DNA of 30,460 nucleotides. Origin: Amoebidium appalachense (lineage: Eukaryota; Protista; Ichthyosporea). The stretch is taken from positions 1-30,460 of the forward strand of contig CAVNZM010000046.1 of the NCBI GenBank assembly GCA_963693365.1, read 5' to 3'. Position 1 is the first letter of the stretch. Every line of letters begins with the position of its first letter. The notes beneath the pieces are model-generated. The model saw nothing but the letters and a program-made list of their open reading frames with translations, ran no database searches and was not told the origin of the DNA. A program made the translations under genes and the position numbers. Below are positions 6,472 through 29,020 of the stretch, one piece after another.

Positions 6472-9099
6472 CTACTTGACGAGTCGCAACAGCACCGTGT
6501 ACCGACCGACCACGAGGTTGTCTTCCAAATCACGCACCTCGACTGACACGGACGTGGCCGCGGTGCGGTGCATGAGCCACATCTGCCCGTGCGAGCTCAG
6601 GAGGTCCGCGCGCACCGTGTGGCCGTCACGCACCAGCACGTACGTCAGGCCCGGGCGGGAGCGGCCGGCGTAGTCGTTGGGGTCGGTGGGCATGGTTTCG
6701 GCAGTGGATGGGTCCGACTGGAGGGCGGGCCGGCACCAACTGACGCCCCTGCCGAAGACGTCATCGATCTTGACATAGAAAAGCATGGTCGCAGGGGCTG
6801 GCCGGGGACACGGAACCATTAAGGCGCTGCCGTCCGTGTAGTAATACCTTCTGGGCGGACGAAACTGCAAGATGCCCACCCTGTCCAGGGCGCTGTTTTC
6901 GAAGTAGCTCCGCCTAATGCTCGCCCAATCCATTTTAGCCGTAACCATCTTCGGGGGTAAAGGGGTATCAAAGTCGACGTCATTGAATGATTCATAGATA
7001 CGACATGATAGAACTTTTTTTGTGGGCTCTGATATCCCAAGGGCACGGCAGAGGGGGCCGGTGAATTCTACACGGATTGGTGTTCTGAAATACTCCGGTG
7101 ACATATAACACAGGTGGCGAAGACGCAACGAATCGTCAGTCCAGAGCAGGGCATTTTCCCAGTTAGGGCGGACGAATATAGTGTAGGTATTCAACTTATC
7201 GTCGTCACCTAAGGGTTGATGACCGATTCTCATGTATACCGCCCTTAAATCTTCCACCACTGCGTCCATAGGATTAGGCGTGTTAGGCACTGGGTTTTCC
7301 TCTGTGAGAATGTACATCAGCGCAAAATATTCTGGCCCGTAGTTGTCCATCCAAGGCTTCATAATGGGGACTGGGCCGTAGGGGTATTCCGCCATTTCGC
7401 TTTGTAACCTTGCATCATAGACTATTGGTTCTGGGTAACTGATCTTTTTTTCTCGGCACACATGTGCAAGTTCCAATGGGGATTTCACTTCTAAATAGAA
7501 AGGCATTAGATAGTCGTGTTTGACCTCGGATGGTTCTATCCTGTTATCGACATGTGGATTATATGGTGATAAACTGACTTCGAATGTGTGGACTGTGTAT
7601 TTTGACACATCAACAGTAACAAGCGATCCAAACTCATTTGAAGTGTAGTAGTATTGGTCTGTACCATGCTGAACCCTGTATATAGTTTGTCGTTCGGAAA
7701 CTTCATTCCCGCCACGAAATTTCCAATTGAACCGATATAGTATACTCTCCAAAAGCACGTGTTCAATTGTATAGTTTATGTCAGAGATCCGATCTGTTTC
7801 GCCGTACAGAGGTTGCGCAAAAAGAAGCCCCCTGTGTATTCTGGCAACGACTGTCCTGCTGGCCAACATGCGGTCATCGATGACGACTATTGAATTAGCC
7901 TCTCGTGGCTTTAGTGAAGAATACGGGTCATGCCCACCAGCTTGGAACCACTCAAGCAGCTCAATAGGCATTGATTCCAGAGGGCGGCTTGAGGGGAAGG
8001 TTGTGGTCGCGTGAACTCTAAGTCTCGTGTAACTCGCACAGTCTTTGGTGTCTTGGAAGTCTTCTGGTGTATAAAAACAGGCCCTATCGCTTAGTGTACC
8101 AGCCGGCAGATCCGGTTTAATATGTGCGCCTGACCCGAAGCCAGCCATTCCCATATTGCCGAACCAGCCTTCATGTATGATTAAAGGTCCATCTGGTGTT
8201 TGCCTCGGTGGTTGAATAAATTCTATCTTTTTCTTGTATGTATCAAGAGTCTTCAAAACAGGCCAACTCTGCATGGGCACAAGACTGATTGGATATCTGT
8301 TCCATTGTATAATGCGTGGAACAGCCGTCCCATTGATATGAAGATCTTGATACGTAGAGTCTGTAGGGTCAAGCTCGGTTGGGCTCAGGTTATGATTGAG
8401 AAACCCAATGGTTGATGTTCGGTCGTAAATTGGTGGTCTTAAACCAAAACTCTCCAGAATATGATTAGATGACAGATACGTCGCCTGAATCCCAAAATTG
8501 AAACGTTTGATCATCGTGTCAATGAGATATGCAGCCGTGTAACGACCTTCGGGGATATTCACGCTGACAGTAATATCACGAAAAGGTGGATCGGGATTGG
8601 TAAGAAGTGTGGGTGCATCTCGCACCACACAACTGACAGTGTTGTTCTTCGCCGTCACAACAAAACCCTCCTCCGTGCTCCCGTGCACGGTCACTGACTC
8701 TACTTGCACCCCCCGAACGCCGTGCACGCGCTGTGCAAGCTGTGTGGTCACCTTGGAATCGGGTGCGGCCATTGAATTGCTCAGGAGCACATACTCGTCC
8801 TCCACTCTACCGCCCGCATCTCGGCTGTATCCACCCATCCCCGCCTGCACGTTACCCCCGTCTGCCCCATGCTCACGGCTGCCCGACGTGGAACCCTCCC
8901 TCACGGTCCGCGTCTGCGCCTGCCGAACTGCACCCCCCACGCCCTGCTTGTTCTGCTGTCTCTGCGCATTTCCCTGCTCTCCCCCTTCCACAAAGGCCTT
9001 CATCTCGGCGTAGATCTTGGCCCGGGACCCGGAGTACGGGGGCATGCCGGGCGTGCGCGACGCACGCCGCCCGTCGCTGTCTGAACCCCGCGTGGCCAT
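6472..9099 (-). CDS. Penton/minor-capsid-like single jelly-roll protein with a very large insertion (875 aa)
   Basis: N-part QLAQRVHGVRGVQVESVTV...NNTV...VNIPEGRYTAAYLI; C-part LCRALG...MLFYVKIDD...VSVEVRDLEDNLVVGRYTVLLRLVK. This is the motif order of NCLDV penton-type proteins and is shared with the gene at 24895. Confidence 0.65.
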   Translation of the reverse strand: MATRGSDSDGRRASRTPGMPPYSGSRAKIYAEMKAFVEGGEQGNAQRQQNKQGVGGAVRQAQTRTVREGSTSGSREHGADGGNVQAGMGGYSRDAGGRVEDEYVLLSNSMAAPDSKVTTQLAQRVHGVRGVQVESVTVHGSTEEGFVVTAKNNTVSCVVRDAPTLLTNPDPPFRDITVSVNIPEGRYTAAYLIDTMIKRFNFGIQATYLSSNHILESFGLRPPIYDRTSTIGFLNHNLSPTELDPTDSTYQDLHINGTAVPRIIQWNRYPISLVPMQSWPVLKTLDTYKKKIEFIQPPRQTPDGPLIIHEGWFGNMGMAGFGSGAHIKPDLPAGTLSDRACFYTPEDFQDTKDCASYTRLRVHATTTFPSSRPLESMPIELLEWFQAGGHDPYSSLKPREANSIVVIDDRMLASRTVVARIHRGLLFAQPLYGETDRISDINYTIEHVLLESILYRFNWKFRGGNEVSERQTIYRVQHGTDQYYYTSNEFGSLVTVDVSKYTVHTFEVSLSPYNPHVDNRIEPSEVKHDYLMPFYLEVKSPLELAHVCREKKISYPEPIVYDARLQSEMAEYPYGPVPIMKPWMDNYGPEYFALMYILTEENPVPNTPNPMDAVVEDLRAVYMRIGHQPLGDDDKLNTYTIFVRPNWENALLWTDDSLRLRHLCYMSPEYFRTPIRVEFTGPLCRALGISEPTKKVLSCRIYESFNDVDFDTPLPPKMVTAKMDWASIRRSYFENSALDRVGILQFRPPRRYYYTDGSALMVPCPRPAPATMLFYVKIDDVFGRGVSWCRPALQSDPSTAETMPTDPNDYAGRSRPGLTYVLVRDGHTVRADLLSSHGQMWLMHRTAATSVSVEVRDLEDNLVVGRYTVLLRLVK

Positions 9100-10567: not shown

Positions 10568-11319
10568 CAGTTACCATCCTCCCCATTAATTTGTGCACGC
10601 CGGGCCTGCAGCCAAAGCAGCGCGCGGGCGGCCAGGGCACCAGCCACGCCGCCCAGCAGGGGCCCCAGGAAGAAGATCCACAGGTGCTTGAGGTCGTGGC
10701 TGTCGCCAAACGTGGCCGCCGCAAGGCTTCTTGCGGGGTTGATGGAGCAGCCGGTGACAGTGACCAACAGCATGTGCATGAGAAACACCACAGACCCGAT
10801 GGCGAGAGGGGAAATGACGGGCGCGACGTCCTCAAGCTTGGGATGCTTGCATGCCAGCGACACCGTAAACACCAAGAACGCCGTGGCGAGCAACTCCATG
10901 GCCAGGGCCTCGGCCTGGGTGGTCCCGCCGACAAGCCCGTTTGTTCCGAACGAGCCGTGGAGGGCGGGAGGCATGCCGGCCCGCAGCAACGCCGTGCCCA
11001 CGATACCTCCGGTAAACTGGGCGGTGAAGTAGAGCGGGAGAAGCACGGGGTCCAGCCAACCGGCGGCAACCATGCCCAGAGTCACCGCCGGGTTGACGTG
11101 GGCACCCGACACGGGGCCCAGCACGGCCACCAGCCCCCCAACAACACCCCCGAACCCGGCGGCCACAGCAAGGACGTCAGCGGCCGATGATGCACCGTGT
11201 GAGGTTTCACCCGTGGCCATGGCGATGCCGATGGCGGTGAAGGTGAGCAGGGCGGTGCCGCAGAACTCGGCGATGAAGGTGGGTGCGTTGTGCAGGAGGA
11301 AGGACTTCACGCTCTGCAT
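10567..11319 (-). CDS. Aquaporin (MIP family), orthodox water-channel type (250 aa)
   Basis: AEFCGT helix 1, SGAHVNPAVT and TGCSINPARS NPA boxes, WIFFLGPLLGG, six hydrophobic segments. ATG at 11319 (ACCATG). Confidence 0.97.
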   Translation of the reverse strand: MQSVKSFLLHNAPTFIAEFCGTALLTFTAIGIAMATGETSHGASSAADVLAVAAGFGGVVGGLVAVLGPVSGAHVNPAVTLGMVAAGWLDPVLLPLYFTAQFTGGIVGTALLRAGMPPALHGSFGTNGLVGGTTQAEALAMELLATAFLVFTVSLACKHPKLEDVAPVISPLAIGSVVFLMHMLLVTVTGCSINPARSLAAATFGDSHDLKHLWIFFLGPLLGGVAGALAARALLWLQARRAQINGEDGN

Positions 11320-24894: not shown

Positions 24895-26253
24895 ATGTCG
24901 CATGCGCGCTCCCGCATCCTTGACGACATGGCGTCCCACATCGATTTCTCGGCAGCCGTGGCGCGCCGGGCAGCGTTCCCGCACGGGCCAGCCCTGCCCT
25001 CGGCCCCCCGCAGCGTGTCGGTGCCGAGCGAGGCGCCCCCGCGTGTCGAGCCCCCGCAGCCGCCGCAGGGCCAGTGGCGCTACCACTTCGTGACGGGCGG
25101 GTCCGAGTGCCGGCCGCTGCAGGTGGAGTTTCCCGCCACCCAGTCCGTGCACGGCATCCGTGTTGAGGGCATCAAGGCGCACAGCGTGTACGACGTGTGC
25201 GAGGGCGCCAACAAGCTCACGCTGTCGCTGTCGTACCTGGACTCGCCCGACGGCCGGCCCCCAGGCATGTGGGTGAAGGCGTCCACCGACGTGTACCTGC
25301 CTGTGGGCAACTACACCCTGGACACCCTGTGCGCCGAACTCGAGATGCGTCTGGACGCCGCCATCGCCGCATGCTTCAACCCCAGCTACAGCCCCGAGGA
25401 GGTGGCGGACATTTTGGAGATGTACCCGGACACGCTGCCCTACTACGCCAGCGTCACACACACGGAGCGGTTGCGCCGGGACGCCGAGCGCAACGGCGAG
25501 GCGTGGACCAGGCACCAGGACTTTGTGTGCAAGACGCGGTGGGCGCCACGCCGGCAGGGCCCGCGCGACGAGATCGCATTCGAGGCGCTGATGCTCGCGC
25601 AGCTGTACTACAGGGAGAACGCATGGGCGTGGCGTGAGCTGGCCAACGAGCGTGACACCCACGGGCGCATCCAGTGGCCGTTCCACAACACGCTGTACAA
25701 CCTCATGACGCCCTCGAAGCTCGCGCTGCCCGGGCGACTGGTCATCAGCATCCACCACCGCAAGAACATGGACCCGGACACCATGAAGCACTGGCTGCCG
25801 TATGCGTCGGTGCCGACGTTCTCGCTTGACGTGTGCCGGGGGCTCGGGAGCGTGCTGGGAATGGCGGCCGGCGCGCACGTCAGCCACAGCCTGACAGCGG
25901 GGCTGCCTCCGCTGGCCCGCTACTTCGACGGGCGAGACCATGCGGCCGTGGAGGAGGGCGACCAGCAGCTGCCGTGCCAGGGCGACAACATCCAGTGCGT
26001 GTTTGGGACGGATGCACCCCTGGGCCCGCGGGGGGCGCTCATGGTGCACGTCATGCAGGGCGAGACGAACCTGCAGGGGCGCATCATGGCGCCGGGCGTG
26101 CAGGGGGCGGCGGGCGGGGCGGTGGACGACATGCTGGCGAGCCCGCAGATCTTGGGGACGCTGGACCACGTCGACACGCTGCGGCTGGTGGTGGTGGACG
26201 AGACCGGGACAAGGGTGACTGGCTGTTTCTCGGCGCTGGTCGCGGTTAAATAA
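24895..26253 (+). CDS. Penton/minor-capsid-like protein, second paralog (452 aa)
   Basis: VEFPATQSVHGIRVEGI...ANKL...VYLPVGNYTLDTLCAEL; C-part LGSVLG...LMVHV...LRLVVVDETGTRVTGCFSALVAVK. TAATG start, AATAAA at the stop. Confidence 0.65.
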   Translation: MSHARSRILDDMASHIDFSAAVARRAAFPHGPALPSAPRSVSVPSEAPPRVEPPQPPQGQWRYHFVTGGSECRPLQVEFPATQSVHGIRVEGIKAHSVYDVCEGANKLTLSLSYLDSPDGRPPGMWVKASTDVYLPVGNYTLDTLCAELEMRLDAAIAACFNPSYSPEEVADILEMYPDTLPYYASVTHTERLRRDAERNGEAWTRHQDFVCKTRWAPRRQGPRDEIAFEALMLAQLYYRENAWAWRELANERDTHGRIQWPFHNTLYNLMTPSKLALPGRLVISIHHRKNMDPDTMKHWLPYASVPTFSLDVCRGLGSVLGMAAGAHVSHSLTAGLPPLARYFDGRDHAAVEEGDQQLPCQGDNIQCVFGTDAPLGPRGALMVHVMQGETNLQGRIMAPGVQGAAGGAVDDMLASPQILGTLDHVDTLRLVVVDETGTRVTGCFSALVAVK

Positions 26254-26874: not shown

Positions 26875-27474
26875 ATGCGTGTGGCCGCCATCGACATCGG
26901 CTTCCTGAACCTGGTGGTGTGCGTGCTCAGCACGACCGACGACCCCGCCACGCCCTTCATCATCCACACGTGGGACCGCTGGCTCGTGGGCAACCCGGAC
27001 ACCACGGCCACGGTGCTGGTGGAGCTGCTGCTGCGCCGGCTGCACGAGGACCGCGCGCTGTTCGCGGACGTCGACATGGTCGTCATCGAGCGCCAGATGG
27101 TCACCAAGCTGAGCGTGCTGGCGCACGCGCTGCAGGCGTACTTCCTCACCCTCAGATTGACCAATGGCCACGGGCCCGGCGTGGTGCTGCAGCACGGCAC
27201 GCGCAAGAACCAGTGCGGGGCGTGGCTCGCCCGCCACGGAATGGCTCCTGCGGAGACGGGCAAGGCGGGGTATGCGGTGTACAAGCGGCGTGCGGTGGTC
27301 GACACGCAGCAAGCGCTCAAGCTGCAGAGTGAGCAGGGGTGGCGGGACAAGTTTGGGCGGGAGGGCAAGAAGGACGACATGGCGGATGCGCTGCTGCACG
27401 GTCTGTGGTACCTGTTCTGTCGGAATCAGAAGGGGGGGGTCACGCTGAAAGAAGGCAGACAGTGTTCAAAATAA
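26875..27474 (+). CDS. Holliday junction resolvase (poxvirus A22/RuvC-like)
   Basis: AIDIGFLNL, VVIERQ, YKRR and KKDDMADALL; the acidic catalytic residues are present. Confidence 0.93.
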   Translation: MRVAAIDIGFLNLVVCVLSTTDDPATPFIIHTWDRWLVGNPDTTATVLVELLLRRLHEDRALFADVDMVVIERQMVTKLSVLAHALQAYFLTLRLTNGHGPGVVLQHGTRKNQCGAWLARHGMAPAETGKAGYAVYKRRAVVDTQQALKLQSEQGWRDKFGREGKKDDMADALLHGLWYLFCRNQKGGVTLKEGRQCSK

Positions 27475-27493: not shown

Positions 27494-29020
27494 TCATGCG
27501 AGCACACTTGCATTCGGAGTTGTCGCTGCTGCTTTCGCGATGTCTTCCACAAGCCGCTCTCCATCCCTGCGCCTCGGCAGTCCTGCGGCTTCAAGCTCGG
27601 CATCGGTCAACACGACCGTTTTCTTGGTTATTACCTCTCTTATTACCTGTGTGTACCGTGGGTCATCAAGATTCGGCTGCACCACATTTATCTCTCCTCC
27701 ATGCATCTTAGCCCAGTAGAGTTCGGTCAGTTGCTTCCCGTACAGGGACAGCACGGCCCCGATTTTGTAGACTGCCCGGAATCCTCTGTCCACCTTCTCA
27801 AGCTTTGTCGTTATATGATTGCAGACCCGTTCCCCAATGGTGTTTCCATTGCCCGGTTGGGAACCCCAGTCGAAGCTTGACGTGCGCAGGAGTATGTAGA
27901 CCATCAACCAGGAGGCACATGCCGAGTCGTGTATTTCGTTTCTATCGACAAGTCCCTCATACAAAACCCTCCTAAAACTTGTCTGAAGGCTCTTACATAC
28001 AGATTCGTGTTGGTAGGTGCGCAGAACTTTCGAGCTTCCAGTGTAACCGGCCCCCTCAAGGAACATACAGAGGGCGTCAGCGATTAGCCCTGCCGGGGCA
28101 GACATGTTAAAGCACTCGACCACCTTGACTTGCGAATCGATAATGACAACAGAAGCATGCTCTGGGCTCGACACATGCATTATATAGTAGCGCTCACGTT
28201 CTTGGCTTTTCAGCCATGAAGAGAGGTTCGACACGAATGCTTTCGGGCATCTGAAACCCCACTTTCCTGCTGACACCTTCCAAGTGGACATTTTACCATT
28301 GTCCGTCACAACACTGAGTGCTGGTGTGGACTTGGGGACAGCATCACTATTATGCTCTATTTTGAGGGATGTCCAGGGGTGTGCAGGGGAAAAACGAACA
28401 GATTTTGGCAGATAGGTTTGCAGCAGTACGAAGGTGTTGTCCCGAGACCTGGCGCCACACCCTGCCACAGCCGGTGAGGCTTCAACGGAGCCAACCCCAA
28501 TCAGCTCGGTCAGTGACTTCTGAAGATCAACGAGACCGTTGTACCAGTCAAATAGAAGTGGCCACGTTTTTTGTATGTCCTCCATCATGTCCGAGGGCGT
28601 AGGTCTTCCAGGGACAATAGCCTGTTTGTACTTTTCGGCCACGTAGGGAGCACACTTCACCACAATCGACCCGAAACGGTGCTTCCGCTGGTCCACGAGA
28701 AACCGGCTTTTTGAATCATACCTTACAGCAAACTTGTATTCCGTACCAGCTGTTTGACGCATACAAATAAACAACAATCTGTAGCCACCCAGCCCTGCTT
28801 CAAAAACCAGAGATGTAACACAGGTCAGACAGACTGGTTCGACATCATTTTGAGTGCTCCACAAGTTGATGGAGAGACAGACGTCCCCCATAGCCCACTT
28901 GTATGTCTGGGTGTTGCGGGGTTTCAGATGTGCGTCTTCCAACTTGAAATGTTGGGTATTGCGTTTGACAAACTTGAAGAAGCAGTAGGGCTTTACCGAC
29001 AATGTCTGTGTTGAAGCCAT
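27494..29020 (-). CDS. Putative CE-clan-like cysteine protease, paralog B (508 aa)
   Basis: HASVVIID...VECFN...SLQ...DSACASWLMVYILLR. Shares VKPxCFFxFVK, LIGVGSVxxSPAVxG, LQTYLPKS, TIGERxCN and VLTDAELxxAGLPxRxDGE with paralog A. Confidence 0.6.
   Translation of the reverse strand: MASTQTLSVKPYCFFKFVKRNTQHFKLEDAHLKPRNTQTYKWAMGDVCLSINLWSTQNDVEPVCLTCVTSLVFEAGLGGYRLLFICMRQTAGTEYKFAVRYDSKSRFLVDQRKHRFGSIVVKCAPYVAEKYKQAIVPGRPTPSDMMEDIQKTWPLLFDWYNGLVDLQKSLTELIGVGSVEASPAVAGCGARSRDNTFVLLQTYLPKSVRFSPAHPWTSLKIEHNSDAVPKSTPALSVVTDNGKMSTWKVSAGKWGFRCPKAFVSNLSSWLKSQERERYYIMHVSSPEHASVVIIDSQVKVVECFNMSAPAGLIADALCMFLEGAGYTGSSKVLRTYQHESVCKSLQTSFRRVLYEGLVDRNEIHDSACASWLMVYILLRTSSFDWGSQPGNGNTIGERVCNHITTKLEKVDRGFRAVYKIGAVLSLYGKQLTELYWAKMHGGEINVVQPNLDDPRYTQVIREVITKKTVVLTDAELEAAGLPRRRDGERLVEDIAKAAATTPNASVLA

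What the first reader, a model, noticed from the sequence alone, without database searches (positions are those of the whole stretch)
6472..9099. Penton-like gene carrying a ~1.7 kb compositionally foreign insertion
Seen: GC falls sharply inside the ORF from ~6900 to ~8650 (hand counts: 43% and 37% for the lines at 7501 and 7561, 75% for the line at 6601) while the frame stays open. The low-GC part roughly matches the segment between the N- and C-terminal jelly-roll-like motifs. Known: single jelly-roll pentons of virophages and NCLDVs carry variable insertion domains that project outward. Inference: a recently swapped-in vertex or receptor-binding module, i.e. cassette-like exchange of a host-range determinant within a conserved scaffold.
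Basis: partly seen in the sequence, partly recalled or inferred. Interest (0 to 1): 0.7.

Follow-up and report, generated by a model that had tools for sequence, protein, structure and literature searches.

The report
Giant-virus penton with low-GC outer domain
A gene of a GC-rich giant virus, likely its capsid-corner (penton) protein, has a 1.7-kb AT-richer middle that covers most of the predicted outward-facing domain and was likely swapped in from a related virus's copy of the same gene rather than from an unrelated source.

Summary
The ORF is on the minus strand (875 aa). Codons 154-724 (8640-6928) have 0.44 GC at four-fold sites against 0.72 and 0.86 in the flanks and 0.82 in 14 neighbouring genes. 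Contigs from other studies bridge both junctions. A penton is likely but not proven: both folds failed, while residues 97-205 align to a profile that hits PBCV-1 and adenovirus pentons. The low-GC part covers most of a predicted 630-residue insertion domain. It is not an unrelated cassette: both its ends align to the one full-length homologue, and related copies in the same runs share collinear islands inside it; only residues 201-520 are unalignable. Sixteen other giant-virus pentons and a paralogue in the window show no such GC step. Best reading (0.55): homologous replacement of most of the insertion domain by an allele from a lower-GC relative, as described for adenovirus D penton loops. 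Rival (0.3): long-standing hypervariability. 'Recent' and 'receptor-binding' are untested. One run shows the locus CpG-methylated, so it may be an endogenous virus.

The parts
6472..9099 (-). Penton-like ORF, 875 aa (P0001)
   Evidence: full-length homologue P0003, 948 aa, E 1.1e-32
8803..9099 (-). Residues 1-99: Gly/Arg/Gln-rich N-terminal extension, high GC, poorly conserved
   Evidence: sequence; 11 of 42 aligned residues identical to P0003
8677..8802 (-). Residues 100-141: predicted jelly-roll strands B-D (labels by analogy), high GC3
   Evidence: 24 of 45 identical to P0003 over 97-141; collinear with penton profile A3; GC3 0.69
6790..8676 (-). Residues 142-770: predicted D-E insertion domain, about 630 aa (C-terminal limit inferred by analogy, not by a significant match)
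   Evidence: position of the domain in solved pentons
6928..8640 (-). Low-GC segment, codons 154-724 (boundaries 142-159 and 714-731)
8488..8574 (-). Residues 176-204: strand + PEGxYT motif + helix, the conserved base of the penton insertion domain, inside the low-GC segment
   Evidence: HMM of 16 giant-virus pentons, 9.0 bits, best shuffle 2.6 (circular at the motif); same motif in two adenovirus penton bases
7540..8499 (-). Residues 201-520: core not alignable to P0003; no family, PDB or internal-repeat match
   Evidence: local score 33, reached by 205 of 300 shuffles
6928..7209 (-). Residues 631-724: low-GC yet clearly homologous to P0003
   Evidence: 29 of 93 identical, score 108, 0 of 300 shuffles; GC3 0.51
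6475..6789 (-). Residues 771-875: predicted jelly-roll strands E-I (by analogy), high GC3
   Evidence: 26 of 62 identical to P0003 over 791-875; beta-strand run in both low-confidence models; no significant profile match to A3
24895..26253 (+). Second penton-like paralogue with a roughly 280-aa insertion domain and no GC step (internal control)
   Evidence: GC3 0.93 scaffold, 0.92 insert; homologue P0002 43%

Best explanation
The ORF likely encodes a single-jelly-roll penton of a GC-rich giant virus, and its 1.7-kb low-GC middle is likely an allele of the penton's own predicted outward-facing insertion domain, taken over by homologous recombination from a related virus with lower GC. The two crossovers would lie in conserved sequence, near the start of the insertion domain (codons 142-159) and about 45 codons before its end (714-731), so the frame and the capsid-building strands stay resident while the exposed crown changes. 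Shown: the composition step, the open frame, the true junctions, conserved flanks with a divergent core, homology of both ends of the low-GC segment to another penton. Inferred: the fold, the exposure, the recombination event, the donor, the timing and any role in attachment.
For: Step at synonymous sites, uniform along the segment (six blocks, p 0.17) and sharp at the C side (GC3 0.51 over 631-724, 0.90 over 725-745). No GC3 step in 16 of 16 other giant-virus pentons (all p 0.12 or more) or in the window's paralogue, against 0.82 vs 0.48 here (p 5e-15). Residues 631-724 (low GC) are as close to P0003 (29 of 93) as the high-GC residues 746-790 (13 of 43), so composition changes where protein conservation does not. 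Residues identical in P0003 still have lower GC3 inside the segment (68 of 137) than in the flanks (57 of 74), p 1e-4. Related copies exist in the same runs: a 2269-nt contig of X5 lies on 8535-8841 at about 79% and runs on for 1898 letters that match only in a short island near 7315-7323; further copies lie on 8666-8802, 8681-8728 and 7738-7775. Penton assignment: profile A3 hits PBCV-1 P1 (E 1.6e-9) and P1v1 (E 4.9e-4); P0001/P0003 residues 97-205 align to A3 over 80 columns, score 31.4, best of 12 shuffles 17.6; Atlas neighbours carry V18-19 and Adeno_Penton_B.
Against: No donor was found. The N-side boundary is graded (GC3 0.69, 0.57, 0.42 over 97-141, 142-162, 163-200). Conserved residues inside the segment keep somewhat more GC3 than variable ones (0.50 vs 0.40, p 0.06; in the reliably aligned part 21 of 35 vs 57 of 74 in the flanks, only p 0.07), as residue turnover or amelioration would give. 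Related copies also seem GC3-poor in their insertion domains (22 of 39 codons, hand count from 30-letter loose ends; against 23 of 30 in their flanks, p 0.13), which would make low GC a lasting trait of this region, not the mark of one recent event. Fifteen of the 16 control pentons have scaffold GC3 under 0.35, so a drop is hard to see in them. The C-terminal half has no significant match to the penton profile, the match without the motif is not above controls (2 of 12 higher), and the Atlas recognition value is under its threshold.
Confidence: 0.55

Rival explanations
1. No single import: the insertion domain is a long-standing hypervariable region of this virus family. Fast residue turnover or frequent exchange among close relatives keeps it near a neutral base composition while the rest of the genome keeps its GC bias, so every member has a low-GC insertion domain.
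For: Related copies' loose ends inside the domain are GC3-poor (22 of 39; p 2e-4 against 0.82, hand counts). Four-fold sites are near uniform (T 73, A 72, C 59, G 55). Conserved residues keep slightly more GC3. Adenovirus D hypervariable capsid segments are lastingly GC-poor (PMC3648800, passages).
Against: The step at codon 724/725 falls where conservation to P0003 does not change. The paralogue's insertion domain keeps GC3 0.92. Near-identical copies of the segment in four other studies differ by 0-2 letters per contig piece, so it is not hypervariable within this virus.
Confidence: 0.3
2. An unrelated foreign module (receptor-binding domain from another gene family, or an in-frame intein or intron ORF) was inserted into a short penton.
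For: Residues 201-520 do not align to P0003 and match nothing in Pfam, PHROGs or the PDB, so a foreign sub-domain nested in the core is not excluded.
Against: The low-GC segment is wider than that core and includes penton-type sequence at both ends. P0003 has a middle of similar length. Related copies share collinear islands near residues 442-454 and 592-598. No intein end motif in the protein, no Hint or endonuclease family, no repeats at the junctions beyond chance pairs.
Confidence: 0.08
3. Artefact or decay: an assembly chimera, or loss of GC through deamination of methylated cytosines in an endogenous copy.
For: The locus is CpG-methylated in run X14.
Against: The 6928 junction is bridged by contigs of X5, X9, X10, X12, X13 and the 8640 junction by X9, X10, X11, X13, from four studies besides the possible source. 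CpG is barely depleted (0.87 vs 0.97), the high-GC flank is methylated too (contig 8798-9018), and the frame is intact.
Confidence: 0.02

Closest known systems
PBCV-1 penton variant P1v1 (PDB 8H2I; PMC9617893, passages read)
   Same: Single jelly-roll with a large D-E insertion forming an outer crown; more than one penton gene per genome; the profile that matches residues 97-205 hits P1 and P1v1.
   Different: P1v1 is 530 aa; no direct sequence match to P0001; the passages read report no composition step or exchange.
EhV-201/EhV-86 penton (PDB 8RBS/8RBT; PMC11006232, passages read)
   Same: Jelly-roll with a 538-residue multi-domain insertion, so a 630-residue insert has a precedent.
   Different: No sequence match shown; nothing on exchange or GC in the passages read.
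Mavirus and Sputnik pentons (PMC6048507, section 9 read)
   Same: Insertion domain between strands D and E, surface-exposed, variable in sequence, proposed for host or giant-virus recognition.
   Different: 139 residues only; fold conserved between the two virophages; recognition is proposed, not shown, in that section.
Human adenovirus D penton-base hypervariable loops (PMC3648800, passages read)
   Same: GC-rich genome, abrupt GC fall in the exposed, variable part of capsid genes, homologous exchange with crossovers in conserved flanks.
   Different: There recombination is shown from 38 genomes and the loops are short; here one allele, 570 codons, a giant virus, and no donor in hand.
Methylated giant endogenous viral elements (PMC11244446, passages and section 7 read)
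   Same: Intron-poor giant-virus genes (VLTF3) under dense CpG methylation, several divergent copies side by side.
   Different: Cited as the described kind only. The host of this window was not determined, no virus-host junction is in the window, and methylation by a viral enzyme is not excluded.

Membership tests
Single jelly-roll penton (Nucleocytoviricota / virophage / adenovirus type) | Eight-stranded single jelly-roll fold | tested here: inconclusive
   AlphaFold2 mean pLDDT 29.9 and 28.4; fold searches on these models carry no weight
Single jelly-roll penton (Nucleocytoviricota / virophage / adenovirus type) | N-terminal strands followed by the insertion-domain base (strand, PEGxYT, helix) in family order | tested here: met
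   80-column collinear match to A3, E 4e-4, above 12 of 12 shuffles; A3 hits PBCV-1 P1, P1v1 and adenovirus pentons; partly circular because A3 was collected by the motif
Single jelly-roll penton (Nucleocytoviricota / virophage / adenovirus type) | C-terminal strands E-I matching the family profile | tested here: inconclusive
   No significant match; conserved with P0003 and predicted beta
Single jelly-roll penton (Nucleocytoviricota / virophage / adenovirus type) | Pentamer at the five-fold vertex of the virion | not testable with these tools
   Needs virions or purified protein
Nucleocytoviricota genome | Hallmark genes nearby | tested here: met
   Pox_VLTF3 E 1.4e-33 at 1832-2818; A22/Ydc2-type resolvase below cut-off at 26875-27474
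Adenovirus-D-like exchange of hypervariable capsid segments | Abrupt GC fall over the variable exposed part | tested here: met
Adenovirus-D-like exchange of hypervariable capsid segments | Discordant trees or shared alleles between otherwise different genomes | not testable with these tools
   Only one full homologue (protein only) and 30-letter ends of related copies
Intein | Hint domain and terminal His/Gly-Asn before Cys/Ser/Thr | tested here: not met
   No such motif (motif recalled), no Pfam hit
Giant endogenous viral element | Dense CpG methylation | tested here: met
   X14: 29 of 29 non-CpG C read as T, 0 of 10 CpG C, in the two ranges fully listed
Giant endogenous viral element | Junction with host chromosome | not testable with these tools
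   No genome held for the window

The most novel reading that the evidence does not exclude
A family of GC-rich giant viruses exchanges almost the whole 570-codon outer domain of a penton as one cassette from a pool of low-GC alleles, by crossovers in the conserved jelly-roll and domain base, to change what the capsid vertex binds: the adenovirus-D mode of capsid evolution at the scale of a whole domain in Nucleocytoviricota, with several alleles lying side by side in the same, possibly endogenous, virus set.
Probability: 0.3. Interest if true: 0.65.

Novelty: new variant of a known kind. Interest (0 to 1): 0.42.

Why it matters
What giant viruses use to recognise their hosts is largely open, and penton insertion domains are a standing but unproven candidate. 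A gene whose outer domain carries a clean compositional scar, with related alleles in the same public runs, lets one test from sequence alone whether these domains are exchanged as units. Large, variable penton inserts are already known, so the value lies in the exchange signature, not in the architecture.

Tried and rejected
Folding: single sequence 97-875 (pLDDT 29.9) and two-sequence alignment (28.4) both failed; Foldseek and VIA-align rows on them (best Z 4.0) are noise and were not used. Direct family searches of P0001 found nothing: Pfam, NCBIfam, PHROGs, PDB. Homologue searches: none by word index; 2 among 1.84 billion representatives, of which P0004, a repetitive insect protein, was rejected. 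No related loci in viral contigs or metagenome contigs (60, 97). No DNA was on record for P0002 or P0003, so their GC could not be read. The MAFFT identity of 26% over 154-724 is not evidence of homology in the core: 201-520 scores like shuffles; a global score for 301-450 beat 299 of 300 shuffles but the range was chosen afterwards. Repeats at the junctions: only chance pairs. Promoter and terminator scan: at chance level and not meant for this virus. Twelve listed single-letter differences in the gene (8 change the residue, 4 do not; random expectation 77%) come from single contigs and are too few to read. Summed contig depth is higher and more broken in the flanks in X5; contig depth cannot be used as copy number, so this was not counted. 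Of 31 motif loci, 29 gave an ORF with the motif and 16 went into A3; dropped were 2 adenovirus pentons, 1 near-duplicate and 10 not or barely linked by BLAST. Paper searches listed no paper on GC-marked exchange of a penton insertion domain in a giant virus; the library lacks most subscription papers and no supplements were read.

Full report
Observation. The ORF at 6472-9099 is on the minus strand and encodes 875 residues. Third-position GC falls from 0.79 to 0.45 over codons 154-724, window 8640-6928. The change-point statistic is 50.1 against at most 13.0 in 200 permutations, with boundaries at codons 142-159 and 714-731. Four-fold sites read 0.44 inside, 0.72 and 0.86 in the flanks and 0.82 in 14 neighbouring genes. 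Amino-acid choice explains little: core codon usage would give GC 0.60, observed 0.46. The frame has no stop where the other five have 23-39.

Not an assembly artefact. Twenty of 22 listed runs hold the stretch; I laid 8 of them, all as contigs. The junction at 6928 is bridged in X5, X9, X10, X12 and X13, the one at 8640 in X9, X10, X11 and X13; X4 spans the whole gene but belongs to the study of the possible source. These near-identical copies differ by 0-3 letters per piece.

Context. VLTF3 (E 1.4e-33), an aquaporin and a weak A22-type resolvase place the window in Nucleocytoviricota. In X14 every non-CpG cytosine reads as T (29 of 29 in the two fully listed ranges) and no CpG cytosine does (0 of 10); difference counts of six contigs equal their non-CpG C or G counts within 1. 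The locus is thus CpG-methylated in that sample, flank included. This fits a silenced endogenous giant virus of the kind described in PMC11244446 (passages and section 7), but the host was not determined and a viral methylase is not excluded.

Is it a penton? Probably (about 0.8). P0001 has no direct Pfam or PDB hit. The Atlas puts it next to clusters with V18-19 (10% of members) and Adeno_Penton_B, at a recognition value under the threshold. A scan for the insertion-base motif gave 31 viral loci; two are adenovirus penton bases and 16 related giant-virus ORFs were aligned as A3. A3 hits PBCV-1 P1 (E 1.6e-9), P1v1 (E 4.9e-4) and adenovirus pentons (E 0.03-0.3). Residues 97-205 of P0001/P0003 align to A3 over 80 collinear columns (score 31.4; best of 12 shuffles 17.6). 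Without the motif the same register is found but is not above controls, and the C-terminal half does not match. By analogy, strands B-D are about 100-141, the insertion domain about 142-770 and strands E-I about 771-875. In solved pentons the insertion lies between D and E and faces outward (PMC6048507 section 9; PMC9617893 passages); EhV has one of 538 residues (PMC11006232 passages).

Is the middle foreign? One full-length homologue exists, P0003 (948 aa). Identity is 30 of 57 over 97-153 and 45 of 126 over 725-875. Residues 201-520 score like shuffles (205 of 300 as high), 521-630 are marginal (1 of 300), while 176-260 and 631-724, both inside the low-GC segment, are clearly homologous (0 of 300 each). 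So the flanks are conserved and the core is not, but the low-GC segment is wider than the core and is penton sequence at both ends. The runs hold related copies. X5 record 22 (2269 nt) lies on 8535-8841 at about 79% and runs on for 1898 letters that do not reach 80%, except that its depth reappears at 7315-7323; other records lie on 7738-7775, 8666-8802 and 8681-8728. Read by hand, their 30-letter loose ends are in frame and share residues with P0001 at the same positions. The segment is therefore a strongly diverged allele of the same domain, not an unrelated cassette. An intein is not supported.

Is the GC step generic? No. None of the 16 pentons in A3 differs in GC3 between scaffold and insert (p 0.12 or more), nor does the window's paralogue (0.93, 0.92); P0001 reads 0.82 and 0.48. 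Most controls are AT-rich, which weakens them. Lower identity in the insert is generic: 11 of 11 pairs with scaffold identity above 45%.

Mechanism. Best supported (0.55): homologous replacement of most of the insertion domain by the allele of a lower-GC relative, with crossovers in conserved sequence. The step at 724/725 (GC3 0.51 to 0.90) falls where similarity to P0003 is flat (29 of 93 before, 13 of 43 over 746-790), which residue turnover does not predict. Conserved residues inside the segment are GC3-poorer than in the flanks (68 of 137 vs 57 of 74, p 1e-4). Against: that contrast is only p 0.07 in the reliably aligned part, conserved residues keep slightly more GC3 than variable ones (p 0.06), the N-side boundary is graded, and related copies also look GC3-poor in the domain (22 of 39 codons by hand, 23 of 30 in their flanks, p 0.13). 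This keeps the rival alive (0.3): a lasting low-GC hypervariable region in the whole family. The two are not exclusive; adenovirus D shows both low GC and repeated exchange in its penton-base loops (PMC3648800 passages). Methylation decay is unlikely: CpG ratio 0.87 vs 0.97. No donor was found, so the event is undated; low amelioration is the only hint of recency. A role in attachment rests on position alone.

Novelty. Penton paralogues and large variable inserts are known, and earlier unchecked notes of this scan report the same theme in other genomes. My paper searches listed no GC-marked exchange of a penton insert in a giant virus; coverage is limited to open papers and I read no supplements. 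Verdict: a real feature, a new variant of a known kind, interest 0.42; 0.65 if whole-domain exchange is shown from the related copies.

Noticed in passing
window:6935-9018 (run X14): Six contigs carry strand-specific C>T or G>A changes whose number equals the non-CpG C or G count within 1; CpG sites stay unchanged. This reads as a conversion library of a fully CpG-methylated locus, suggesting a host-silenced endogenous giant virus.
   Followed up: partly
window:24895-26253 (+): Second penton-like gene; in its homologue P0002 the insertion domain is as conserved (132 of 282) as the scaffold (43 of 104), the opposite of P0001.
   Followed up: partly
window:21166-22671 (+) and 27494-29020 (-): Two paralogues of unknown family, 43% identical, both with lower GC at four-fold sites (0.62, 0.56) along their whole length; possibly acquired genes.
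   Followed up: no
window:1832-2818 (-): VLTF3; the only named close hit (51%) is annotated in a Daphnia sinensis assembly on a 183-kb contig, which may be viral or from an associated organism.
   Followed up: no
window:10567-11319 (-): Virus-encoded aquaporin (MIP, E 3e-45); a more divergent copy lies on 10579-10770 in run X9.
   Followed up: no
window:9125-10567 (-): 480-aa protein directly upstream of the penton gene with a Cys-rich C-terminal part and a hydrophobic tail, resembling viral membrane proteins of the L1/F9 type (resemblance recalled; no Pfam hit).
   Followed up: no
window:6051-6337 (runs X4, X5): A related virus copy (about 85% alike) has 377 other letters in place of these 285, and in X4 its contig runs on past 6411 without lying on the penton gene.
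   Followed up: no
window:6676 (run X9): One contig follows the gene's 3' end up to codon 808 and then carries 148 unlike letters; a variant allele or a library chimera.
   Followed up: no
L016:351-6017 (-): A 1889-aa viral protein with the penton motif near residue 998 and no Pfam hit; possibly a very large penton variant.
   Followed up: no
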